From: Escherichia coli
GTDB lineage: Bacteria; Pseudomonadota; Gammaproteobacteria; Enterobacterales; Enterobacteriaceae
Length of the DNA stretch: 64,000 nt
Strand: one strand, 5' to 3'
NCBI RefSeq assembly: GCF_044324875.1
Contig: NZ_CP172185.1
The position numbers were made by a program. Each line of letters begins with the position of its first letter. Position 1 is the stretch's first letter. Shown here piece by piece: positions 12,618 through 14,025 of this stretch.

Positions 12618-14025
12618 TAATGGGTGTGCATTAGTAGGCCTGATAAGACGCGTCAGCGTCGCATCAGGCATCGGATCGCAACTGCCGGATGCGGCGTGAA
12701 CGCCTTATCCGGCCTACGGGCCGCGTCCTTGGTGTGATAAAGGCACCAAATCCCAGGCATGATAAGACGCGTCAACGTCGCATCAGGCAATAGTCGCCGG
12801 AGCGATACAGAGATTTATTCTTCCAGCGAATACGGCAGCGGCTCGATATGCAATGTATTCGCATCGTCACGCACGCGGAAGATGCTGTCCAGTTCCATAT
12901 CGTTATTCATGACGACCTGTACCACGACCTGACCATCTTCCAGTTTTACCGCAGCCAGCACCGTACCGGTACGACGCCAGTTCTCGCCCATTTTCAGCTC
13001 TAAGTCTTCACCAGCTTCCGGCAGTCGGCTGGCACTACCTGTCAGCAACCAGAGCGCGCGTTTGTTGGCACCACGGAATTTAGCTCGCGCCACCATCTCT
13101 TGTCCGGTATAGCAGCCTTTTTTAAAGCTAATGCCGCCCAGCGCCTGGAGGTTGGTCGCCTGTGGGATAAACTGCCCGCTGTTGGCGGCATCAATCACCG
13201 GGAAACCCGCTTCAATGTTTAATGCCAGCCACTGTTGGCTATTGTTCAGTTCCGCTTCACCGCGCAGTTTATCGGTCAGCATATTGGCAGTGGCTTCATC
13301 GGTTACGATCAGGAAACGTTCTGCAGGGTGTTCAAACCATAGCAAAGTGGTCGCGCCTTCTTTAACTACCTGTTTTTCTTTCGAAGGCAGTTCACTAAAG
13401 ATATTTGCCAGCGCGGCGCGCGCCTGAAAACCGGCAACACCAAGCAGCACACGCTCGTCGTCTGGCGCGATGGTCACTTTAGAGAATACCGCATATTTTT
13501 TCAGTTCAGTCAGCTGCGATTCACGCACGCTGCGCCGTTCAATCCATGCAAAGCCATCGCCGTCGCGGAACAGACGTAAATTGCTCCACATTTTACCTTT
13601 GGCGTCGCAATGGGCGGCGAGCAGGTGCTGATCTTCTGTCATCTGGCTGACATCTGCTGTCACCTGACCCTGCATATATTTTTCGCTGTCCGCGCCAGTA
13701 ATGGTGGCAAGCGCCCAGTCATCAAGCGTTATCAGCGTCAGCGGTAAACGGGCAGACGCCGTAGGCTGACGGGGAGGAAAAGGTGTAAAAGCCATAATAG
13801 AGTCCTGAGTTGCTTAACGGCGTATTAATCACTAATGGTAAAAGAGCTATGAGGCAATGCAAGTGCTTTCACTACGCGATCTGTGCCTTCTGCGAGGCGA
13901 CTTCCAAAAAAATGAAGCCCTTGAATTGTTGTGAATTAATTTCGCGATCGCGATGGTGTTTACTGATATTCCCGTAAAAGAAGTCGAAAAACACGTTACA
14001 ATAGCGGGGTACTGGATTTTCGTGA

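What the first reader, a model, noticed from the sequence alone, without database searches (positions are those of the whole stretch)
12625..12800. Cluster of REP elements between convergent yqfA and ygfZ
At least three REP-like imperfect palindromes in alternating orientation (a BIME) fill the convergent intergenic gap. They probably act as mRNA stabilisers or terminators and as binding sites for gyrase or IHF. This is an ordinary E. coli feature.
Basis: partly seen in the sequence, partly recalled or inferred. Interest (0 to 1): 0.15.

Follow-up and report, generated by a model that had tools for sequence, protein, structure and literature searches.

The report
Ordinary REP cluster between trhA and ygfZ
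The 194-base gap between the converging E. coli genes trhA (yqfA) and ygfZ holds three copies, plus one fragment, of the common E. coli repeat called REP; this is a known, ordinary feature that most likely shapes and protects the tail ends of both messenger RNAs.

Summary
The gap 12621-12814 between trhA/yqfA (+) and ygfZ (-) contains three REP palindromes in alternating orientation. They are REP1 12634-12670 (z2 type), REP2 12683-12717 (y type) and REP3 12753-12789 (z2-like, degenerate foot). A truncated REP head lies at 12797-12807. Independent support comes from the Rfam REP-pair model naRNA4 (81.3 bits, E 3e-14) and from the gap and its short flanks matching a median of 38 places per E. 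coli genome.

The architecture is BIME-2-like: y plus z2 with a 12-nt short linker. The gap has no IHF consensus and no intrinsic terminator.

K-12 carries the same 3-REP locus. Published K-12 data place a Term-seq RNA 3' end 12 nt past the REP2 hairpin on the ygfZ strand. They also report Rho-dependent termination regions on both strands at or just beyond the cluster. The best explanation is therefore a two-way 3'-UTR exonuclease block coupled to leaky, Rho-assisted termination.

The cluster is polymorphic. The 3-REP allele occurs in 2198 of 5426 E. coli genomes. The rest that were examined have a 76-nt gap with one REP, differing by a 119-nt indel between the two direct z2 copies. The gap diverges at about the neutral rate.

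The feature is already known and of low interest.

The parts
11961..12620 (+). trhA (yqfA) coding sequence, 219 aa, stop TAA at 12618-12620. Its 3' UTR runs into the cluster.
   Evidence: ORF list. The same gene is annotated trhA in K-12 and other E. coli. There are no amino-acid changes against K-12.
12634..12670 (+). REP1, z2 type. GTAG foot at 12634-12637 and hairpin at 12638-12669. Strand is given as the one on which GTAG is 5'. The hairpin starts 17 nt after the trhA stop codon, or 13 nt if counted to GTAG.
   Evidence: Inverted repeat I4. Second hairpin of the naRNA4 model, Z2 half. Hairpin energy -21.9/-21.4 kcal/mol. Only 1 of 37 positions differs from K-12.
12671..12682 (.). 12-nt head-to-head short linker (S-like), TCGGATCGCAAC. 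Position 12671 on the - strand corresponds to the K-12 Term-seq 3' end at 3042438 (+).
   Evidence: PMC7815308 supplementary file 1. The coordinate and the 61-mer were verified against the K-12 sequence.
12683..12717 (-). REP2, y type, in inverted orientation. CTAC at 12714-12717 on the + strand, which reads GTAG on the - strand.
   Evidence: Inverted repeat I5. First hairpin of the naRNA4 model, Y half. Hairpin energy about -21 kcal/mol.
12718..12752 (.). 35-nt tail-to-tail linker specific to this locus. It carries a weak hairpin of its own (TTGGTGT...GCACCAA) that is not conserved in K-12 or E69.
   Evidence: Single copy: 2199 places in 2198 genomes. Hairpin energy -8.7/-6.3 kcal/mol. The K-12 changes at 12729, 12732 and 12746 break pairs rather than compensate.
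12753..12789 (+). REP3, z2-like, in the same orientation as REP1. The foot is degenerate: CCAG in place of GTAG, and GGCATGAT in place of GGCCTGAT.
   Evidence: Direct repeat D1, 94% identical, spacing 119 nt. nhmmer E 1.3e-10. Hairpin energy only -10.9/-12.6 kcal/mol.
12797..12807 (-). Truncated REP head, GCCGGAGCGAT, y-like with one base missing. It faces the head of REP3 across a 7-nt spacer. In K-12 and the short alleles the equivalent, TGCCTGATGCGA, forms a perfect 11-12-bp hairpin with the REP3 head.
   Evidence: Alignment. Weak third naRNA4 hit at 12756-12828, 31.8 bits. K-12 fold.
12671..12789 (.). The 119-nt unit (S linker + REP2 + long linker + REP3, or equivalently 12636-12754) that is present in the long allele and absent from the short allele.
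   Evidence: Alignments. Gap of 76 nt in L003, L004 and L005. D1 spacing of 119 nt.
12815..13795 (-). ygfZ coding sequence, 326 aa, stop at 12815-12817. Its 3' UTR runs through the half-REP, REP3, the long linker and REP2.
   Evidence: ORF list. Annotation in E. coli records.

Best explanation
The cluster is a BIME-2-like group of REP elements: z2, a 12-nt linker, y, a 35-nt linker, a z2-like copy, and a half REP. It lies in the shared 3' untranslated region of two converging genes and works mainly at the RNA level in both directions. Neither transcript has an intrinsic terminator. RNA polymerase reads into or through the cluster, and Rho ends transcription at or beyond it. 3'-to-5' exonucleases (PNPase, RNase II) then trim the RNA back until they stall a few bases downstream of a stable REP hairpin. 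For ygfZ that block is the REP2 hairpin or the long REP3:REP2 duplex. For trhA it is the REP1 hairpin. This defines and protects the mRNA 3' ends. Shown here: the anatomy, the hairpins, the absence of a terminator, and conservation of the locus. Shown by others in K-12: the 3' end position and the Rho dependence. Inferred: that the window's slightly different allele behaves the same way, and that exonuclease stalling rather than direct termination creates the mapped end. At the DNA level the cluster is a slowly decaying, partly selfish repeat. Its copy number changes by recombination between the two direct z2 copies.
For: The anatomy and REP identity rest. No intrinsic-terminator-like site falls within 12621-12814. 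The gap is strongly structured on both strands, with z-scores of -4.3 and -3.9. The ygfZ-sense 3' UTR, 12814 down to 12671, folds into a REP3:REP2 long hairpin of -58 kcal/mol with a free tail of about 10 nt. K-12 MG1655 carries the same 3-REP locus. In K-12, Adams et al. 2021 (PMC7815308) list a Term-seq 3' end at 3042438 (+) in LB at OD 0.4, with read count 946. That position equals window 12671 on the - strand, the last base of the 12-nt linker after REP2. The same paper lists Rho termination regions at 3042772 (+), with Rho score 8.3 and p 1e-19, which lies about 280 nt past the gap in trhA antisense. It also lists 3042422 (-), with Rho score 4.2 and p 3e-14, which lies inside the cluster on the trhA-sense strand. 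The general model is described in several papers. Rho-dependent transcripts end just downstream of stable U-less hairpins and are trimmed by PNPase and RNase II, and REPs resist exonucleases (PMC6061677). REP325 acts as both a partial Rho-dependent terminator and a stabiliser; about 60% of REPs lie between convergent genes, and such pairs are more highly expressed (bioRxiv 10.64898/2026.03.23.713779). The same gap holds REPs in other lineages: a divergent Escherichia (E69, 94.6% identical), E. albertii, and, in a different arrangement, Pseudocitrobacter faecalis.
Against: The experimental data come from K-12, whose gap differs from the window at 22 of 194 positions. The Term-seq end was listed in only one of three growth conditions and was classed as 'orphan'. 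No Term-seq end was listed for trhA. The Rho scores use 800-nt windows, so their positions are coarse. Gap divergence between the window and K-12 is 11%, which equals four-fold-site divergence in the flanking genes (7-11%). The sequence is therefore under little purifying selection, except perhaps REP1. About 59% of E. coli genomes lack the long linker of the 3-REP allele, and every such locus read had a single REP, so three copies are not needed. The 2026 preprint found no general lengthening of mRNA half-life for genes with terminal REPs.
Confidence: 0.72

Rival explanations
1. The cluster is essentially selfish or neutral DNA. It would be a REPIN/BIME family propagated or rearranged by the REP-associated Y1 transposase (TnpA-REP/RAYT) and by homologous recombination. 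It is tolerated in a convergent gap because it does no harm there, and any RNA 3' ends are by-products.
For: The gap diverges at the neutral rate. There is presence/absence polymorphism of a 119-nt unit bounded by direct REP copies: 2198 of 5426 genomes carry the long linker. Two kinds of 1-REP allele have different junctions. REP3 has lost the GTAG foot, and K-12 REP2 has lost foot pairs. BIME-2 copy number at a locus is known to vary between strains, and TnpA-REP cleaves and recombines BIMEs in vitro (PMC3333891).
Against: This reading does not conflict with the RNA-level role, and both can hold. REPs have been retained at this gap since before the E. coli/E. albertii split and also occur in Pseudocitrobacter. 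A stable RNA 3' end does map to the cluster. The 35-nt linker is single-copy, which argues against recent transposition of the unit from elsewhere.
Confidence: 0.5
2. The cluster is a DNA-level protein-binding site. DNA gyrase, and possibly Pol I or HU, would bind the BIME-2 and relieve or insulate the positive supercoiling that builds up between two converging transcription units.
For: The y/z2 composition with a short linker is the BIME-2 class, for which in vivo gyrase cleavage was reported (Espeli & Boccard 1997). REPs have also been described as topological insulators (both cited in PMC3333891). The location between two well-expressed converging genes is where positive supercoils accumulate; baseMean is 3480 for yqfA and 4997 for ygfZ in the supplement of the 2026 preprint.
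Against: Nothing in the sequence can test binding. The single-REP allele is the commoner one. No locus-specific gyrase data were found.
Confidence: 0.25
3. The cluster is an IHF-binding BIME-1 (RIB/RIP) element.
For: The only support is the general association of some BIMEs with IHF (PMC3333891).
Against: No z1 REP and no long L linker are present. No match to WATCAANNNNTTR, even with one mismatch, lies within 12621-12814.
Confidence: 0.03
4. REP1-linker-REP2 encodes a nucleoid-associated small RNA of the naRNA4 kind, which binds HU and bridges DNA cruciforms.
For: The Rfam naRNA4 model matches above its gathering score on both strands, at 81.3 and 59.7 bits. Qian et al. 2015 proposed that RNAs with a Y and a Z2 hairpin, together with HU, condense DNA (PMC4550694).
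Against: The model is in effect a profile of any y-S-z2 unit, and this locus is not REP325. The 2026 preprint from the same laboratories reports that REP325/naRNA4 does not measurably compact the nucleoid and that REP-REP contacts are not seen. No promoter-like site lies in the gap.
Confidence: 0.05
5. REP1 lies close enough to the trhA stop codon to stall terminating ribosomes and lower TrhA synthesis. This effect was reported by Liang, Rudd and Deutscher in 2015 for REPs within about 15 nt of a stop codon; I cite it from my own knowledge and could not retrieve the paper here.
For: The REP1 GTAG starts 13 nt after the stop codon and the stem starts 17 nt after it.
Against: The stem begins just outside the reported window. 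The spacing could not be checked against the paper's gene list.
Confidence: 0.1

Closest known systems
BIME-2 (bacterial interspersed mosaic element type 2) of E. coli, for example REP325 between yjdM and yjdN
   Same: It has alternating y and z2 REPs joined head-to-head by a short linker. Copy number varies between strains. It is extragenic and lies at gene 3' ends. It matches the covariance model built from REP325 units.
   Different: It has only one and a half units rather than long tandem arrays. The tail-to-tail linker is 35 nt and unique to this locus, not a shared s/l/r motif as far as I could test. REP3 lacks the GTAG foot. A truncated fourth REP is present.
REP stabilisers and Rho-dependent 3'-end hairpins, as in malE-malF and the Dar & Sorek class of U-less 3' hairpins
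   Same: It provides a stable hairpin with no U tract, with a steady-state 3' end a few bases downstream and a Rho-dependent region beyond it.
   Different: Here one cluster serves two converging transcripts. The protecting structure for ygfZ may be a roughly 100-nt duplex between REP3 and REP2 rather than a single REP.
BIME-1 / RIB / RIP elements (IHF-binding)
   Same: They are also built from REPs in inverted orientation.
   Different: BIME-1 elements carry y plus z1 and a conserved long L linker with an IHF site. None of these is present here.
REPINs mobilised by RAYT (TnpA-REP)
   Same: REP1 and REP2 form an inverted REP doublet able to fold into a long hairpin. GTAG feet and stem bubbles are present on both.
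   Different: There is no sign of recent mobility at this locus. The polymorphism is explained by recombination between direct copies, and the linker is single-copy.

Membership tests
REP / palindromic unit (E. coli y, z1, z2) | An imperfect palindrome of 30-40 nt with an internal mismatch bubble | tested here: met
   The arms are 14 nt and 86% complementary in REP1 and REP2. The folds show symmetric internal loops, with hairpin energies of -21 kcal/mol. REP3 is weaker, at -11 to -13 kcal/mol.
REP / palindromic unit (E. coli y, z1, z2) | A conserved GTAG tetranucleotide 5' of the palindrome foot (PMC3333891) | tested here: met
   REP1 has GTAG at 12634-12637. REP2 has CTAC at 12714-12717, which reads GTAG on the - strand. 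REP3 does not meet the feature; it has CCAG at 12753-12756.
REP / palindromic unit (E. coli y, z1, z2) | High copy number, dispersed across the genome, and extragenic | tested here: met
Here the copies lie wholly between two stop codons.
BIME-2 | Composed of y and z2 REPs in alternating orientation, separated by a short linker S | tested here: met
   The order is z2 (REP1), a 12-nt linker, y (REP2), then a z2-like copy (REP3). The definition comes from PMC3333891. The type assignment of each REP rests on the Y/Z2 halves of the Rfam model and on my own memory of the consensus sequences.
BIME-2 | Flanking or tail-to-tail motif of type s, l or r shared between loci | tested here: inconclusive
   The 42-nt query across the long linker finds only this locus, 1 place per genome. 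I had no reference sequences for s, l or r, and short motifs would escape that search. PMC3333891 states that BIME-2 linkers vary in length and sequence.
BIME-2 | The number of units at a locus varies between strains | tested here: met
   The 3-REP allele is in 2198 of 5426 genomes. The 1-REP allele has a 76-nt gap in L003, L004 and L005.
BIME-1 / RIB / RIP | A y plus z1 pair separated by the conserved L linker carrying an IHF site | tested here: not met
   No IHF consensus with one mismatch or fewer lies in 12621-12814. The linkers are 12 nt and 35 nt and are locus-specific.
Rfam RF02564 naRNA4 | A score at or above the gathering threshold, with two hairpins | tested here: met
   81.3 bits on the - strand and 59.7 bits on the + strand, against a gathering score of 59.5.
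Rfam RF02564 naRNA4 | A discrete HU-bound, nucleoid-associated RNA product | not testable with these tools
   No expression or binding data exist for this locus. The function itself is disputed.
Intrinsic (Rho-independent) terminator | A GC-rich hairpin followed by a U tract | tested here: not met
   None of the terminator-like sites found falls in the gap. The sequences after each REP are not T-rich.
REPIN / RAYT substrate | An inverted REP doublet with GTAG and a stem mismatch, mobilised by TnpA-REP | not testable with these tools
   The structural features are present for REP1 and REP2. Mobility or cleavage cannot be tested in silico, and no RAYT gene was looked for in the window.

The most novel reading that the evidence does not exclude
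The 3-REP versus 1-REP polymorphism, about 40:60 among complete E. coli genomes, could be a naturally selected 3'-UTR switch. It would tune trhA and/or ygfZ expression, or convergent read-through, between lineages. Three observations would then be footprints of selection rather than neutral turnover: recurrent deletions (two junction types), REP1 homogenised to the REP3 sequence in some lineages, and a roughly 0.5-kb recombination tract centred on the cluster in this strain.
Probability: 0.08. Interest if true: 0.3.

Novelty: already known. Interest (0 to 1): 0.08.

Why it matters
It matters little beyond correct annotation. The gap should be labelled as a REP/BIME-2-like cluster forming the shared 3' UTR of trhA and ygfZ. 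It should not be read as an sRNA gene (the naRNA4 hit), as small ORFs, or as an IHF site. The locus is a tidy natural example in three respects. One REP cluster serves two converging, Rho-terminated transcripts. REP copy number changes by recombination between direct copies. And such alleles move between E. coli lineages on short recombination tracts.

Tried and rejected
- **Consensus searches.** The 0-mismatch results are not independent, because I wrote the patterns after seeing the sequence. I replaced them with the Rfam model and the genome-wide dispersal count as evidence.
- **Fuzzy-regex scan of the window for REPs.** It timed out. I replaced it with nhmmer, which found only these three strong copies in the 64 kb.
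- **REP features in the K-12 RefSeq record.** None are listed in this copy.
- **IHF site.** None lies in the gap.
- **Intrinsic terminator or promoter in the gap.** None was found.
- **Long linker as a shared BIME motif.** It is single-copy.
- **Conserved hairpin in the long linker.** I rejected this, because the K-12 and E69 changes break pairs rather than compensate.
- **Locus-specific literature.** None was found. The supplements of PMC6061677 are not held. The tables of the 2026 preprint gave only expression values.
- **Liang, Rudd and Deutscher 2015 on REP-to-stop-codon distance.** The paper could not be retrieved, so that rival rests on my own knowledge.
- **Small ORFs overlapping the REPs.** These are 12468-12671 (-), 12541-12699 (+), 12653-12790 (-) and 12759-12932 (+). 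I regard them as translation artefacts of REP sequence and did not pursue them.

Full report
**1. The observation**

The + strand ORF 11961-12620 is trhA (formerly yqfA), a PAQR-family membrane protein. The - strand ORF 12815-13795 is ygfZ. The two genes converge and leave a gap of 194 nt, 12621-12814.

Reading the gap and running the repeat finder gives three imperfect palindromes:
- REP1 is 12634-12670: GTAGGCCTGATAAGACGCGTCAGCGTCGCATCAGGCA.
- REP2 is 12683-12717: TGCCGGATGCGGCGTGAACGCCTTATCCGGCCTAC, in the opposite orientation.
- REP3 is 12753-12789, in the same orientation as REP1. It is 94% identical to REP1 over 35 nt and starts 119 nt after it.

REP1 and REP2 each have 14-nt arms that are 86% complementary. 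After REP3 and a 7-nt spacer lies an 11-nt fragment, GCCGGAGCGAT (12797-12807). It is a truncated REP head facing REP3.

**2. Is it more than chance, and is it really REP?**

My exact-match searches with y and z2 consensus strings are not independent, because I wrote the strings after seeing the sequence. Three other tests are independent:
- The Rfam model RF02564 (naRNA4) was built from the y-linker-z2 units of REP325. It matches 12637-12714 at 81.3 bits on the - strand and 59.7 bits on the + strand, against a gathering score of 59.5 and with E 3e-14. REP2 fills the Y hairpin and REP1 the Z2 hairpin.
These are dispersed, high-copy repeats.
- Both strands of the gap fold better than all 200 dinucleotide shuffles, with z-scores of -4.3 and -3.9.

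Within the 64-kb window an HMM built from the three copies finds no other strong copy. It finds only a weak solitary one after bglA.

**3. Which kind of BIME?**

Ton-Hoang et al. (PMC3333891) give the definitions:
- BIME-1 is y plus z1 with a long, conserved L linker that often carries an IHF site.
- BIME-2 is y plus z2 with a short linker S and flanking s, l or r motifs. It is tandemly repeated, and its copy number varies between strains.
- A conserved GTAG lies 5' of the palindrome foot, and a stem mismatch is required for binding of the REP-associated transposase.

Here REP1 (z2) and REP2 (y) are joined head-to-head by 12 nt. Both carry GTAG/CTAC feet and internal bubbles. This is the BIME-2 arrangement.

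REP3 has CCAG instead of GTAG and a weaker stem, at -11 to -13 kcal/mol against -21 kcal/mol. The 35-nt tail-to-tail linker occurs at one place per genome, at this locus only. I could not show that it is a shared s, l or r motif. "BIME-2-like, possibly atypical" is therefore the safest label.

No IHF consensus, even with one mismatch, falls in the gap.

**4. Organism and conservation**

The flanking 4 kb is 98-99.8% identical to E. coli genomes. K-12 MG1655 has the same three-REP locus in a 195-nt gap.

Between the window and K-12 the gap differs at 22 of 194 positions (11%). This is the same as four-fold degenerate sites in trhA (10.7%) and ygfZ (7.4%). Only REP1 is notably conserved, with 1 difference in 37 positions.

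The small hairpin inside the long linker is not maintained. The K-12 and E69 substitutions break pairs rather than compensate.

**5. Polymorphism**

Many genomes have a 76-nt gap with a single REP. The difference is exactly the 119-nt unit bounded by the direct z2 copies. The long linker, and hence the 3-REP allele, is present in 2198 of 5426 genomes, or 40.5%.

A divergent Escherichia, E69, is 94.6% identical over 5.3 kb and also has the 3-REP arrangement with a diverged linker. The E. albertii contig ends just after a degenerate REP1. The long form is therefore old, and the short forms are most simply deletions by recombination between REP1 and REP3.

There are two short types with different junctions:
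- The SC418/JBEHAAB type has the REP1 left flank joined to a REP3-like body.
- The KE55 type has a body of TGAAAAGACACACC, like REP1 of E69 and E. albertii.

This suggests more than one deletion event, or a deletion followed by gene conversion.

The strain closest to the window in the flanks, SC418, carries the short allele. The window and SC418 show no differences over 11486-12523, then 21 differences over 12524-13040, then about 0.2% divergence beyond that. This marks a short recombination tract centred on the cluster.

In Pseudocitrobacter faecalis the same gap holds two y-type REPs arranged tail-to-tail. REP occupancy of this convergent gap therefore recurs across genera.

**6. Mechanism**

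No intrinsic terminator lies in the gap.

Adams et al. 2021 (PMC7815308) list a Term-seq 3' end at 3042438 (+) in LB at OD 0.4, with read count 946 and class 'orphan'. I located their 61-mer in the K-12 sequence. The end nucleotide is the last base of the 12-nt linker, 12 nt downstream of the REP2 hairpin on the ygfZ-sense strand. It corresponds to window 12671 on the - strand.

Their bicyclomycin data list two Rho termination regions:
- 3042772 (+), antisense to yqfA, with Rho score 8.3 and p 1e-19. It lies about 280 nt beyond the gap.
- 3042422 (-), with Rho score 4.2 and p 3e-14. It lies inside the cluster on the trhA-sense strand.

These scores use 800-nt windows, so the positions are coarse.

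Together with two other papers, this supports a two-way 3'-UTR element. The papers are:
- Dar & Sorek (PMC6061677), who showed that Rho-dependent transcripts end just after stable U-less hairpins following trimming by PNPase and RNase II.
- The 2026 REP325 study, which described a dual role as partial Rho-dependent terminator and stabiliser.

In this model transcription runs into or through the REPs, Rho stops it, and exonucleases trim back to a REP hairpin. In the window the ygfZ 3' UTR up to 12671 folds into a REP3:REP2 long duplex of -58 kcal/mol with a free tail of about 10 nt. The trhA 3' UTR meets the REP1 hairpin 17 nt after its stop codon.

That the window's allele behaves like K-12's is an inference.

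**7. Rivals**

- **Selfish or neutral repeat.** This is compatible with the main explanation and well supported by the neutral divergence and the polymorphism.
- **Gyrase binding.** It is plausible for the BIME-2 class (reference) but untested here.
- **IHF binding.** The sequence evidence argues against it.
- **naRNA4-type nucleoid RNA.** The hit reflects only that the Rfam family models any y-S-z2 unit, and the nucleoid role is now disputed.
- **Stop-codon-proximal translational effect on trhA.** The spacing is borderline, and this rests on my own knowledge.

**8. Verdict**

The finding is real, correctly located and correctly interpreted apart from the IHF suggestion. It is an already known, ordinary E. 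coli feature of low interest.

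Noticed in passing
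window 9889-10007 (the gcvP/bglA convergent gap): K-12 has about 1.0 kb here containing ygfF (b2902). The window has no counterpart. It has about 119 nt instead, with a solitary z1-like REP (9968-9997, - strand: TGCCTGATGCGCTACGCTCATCAGGCCTGG). A terminator-like hairpin followed by a T run lies just after gcvP, near 9865-9886.
   Followed up: partly
window 12524-13040: Against its closest flank relative, SC418 (L005), the window has no differences over 11486-12523, 21 differences over 12524-13040, and about 0.2% divergence downstream. The gap itself is nearly identical to EC42405, whose flanks are much more divergent. The region is a mosaic: a short recombination tract carrying the 3-REP allele.
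   Followed up: partly
L003, L004, L005 (1-REP alleles); L013 1476-1690; L006 1-58: There are two distinct single-REP alleles with different junctions. REP1 of E69, E. albertii and KE55 has a different body (TGAAAAGACAC...) from REP1 of K-12 and the window, which matches REP3. This hints at independent deletions and at gene conversion between the REP copies.
   Followed up: partly
window 12637-12714: Rfam RF02564 (naRNA4) scores above its gathering threshold on both strands at a locus that is not REP325. Automatic annotation would wrongly call an sRNA gene at ordinary BIME-2 units.
   Followed up: yes
window 12468-12671 (-), 12541-12699 (+), 12653-12790 (-), 12759-12932 (+): Mechanical ORFs of 45-67 aa run through the REPs, with peptides such as MPDATLTRLIRPT. 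They are probably REP-derived artefacts that could be mis-annotated as hypothetical proteins.
   Followed up: no
L007 3050-3128 (Pseudocitrobacter faecalis): The same trhA/ygfZ convergent gap in another genus holds two y-type REPs arranged tail-to-tail with a 19-nt spacer, a different arrangement from E. coli. It suggests independent or remodelled REP occupancy of the same gap.
   Followed up: no
window 13634-13739 (-): A weak sub-threshold Rfam hit to RT-4 RNA (25.4 bits against a gathering score of 73.5, E 0.16) lies inside ygfZ. It is almost certainly chance.
   Followed up: no
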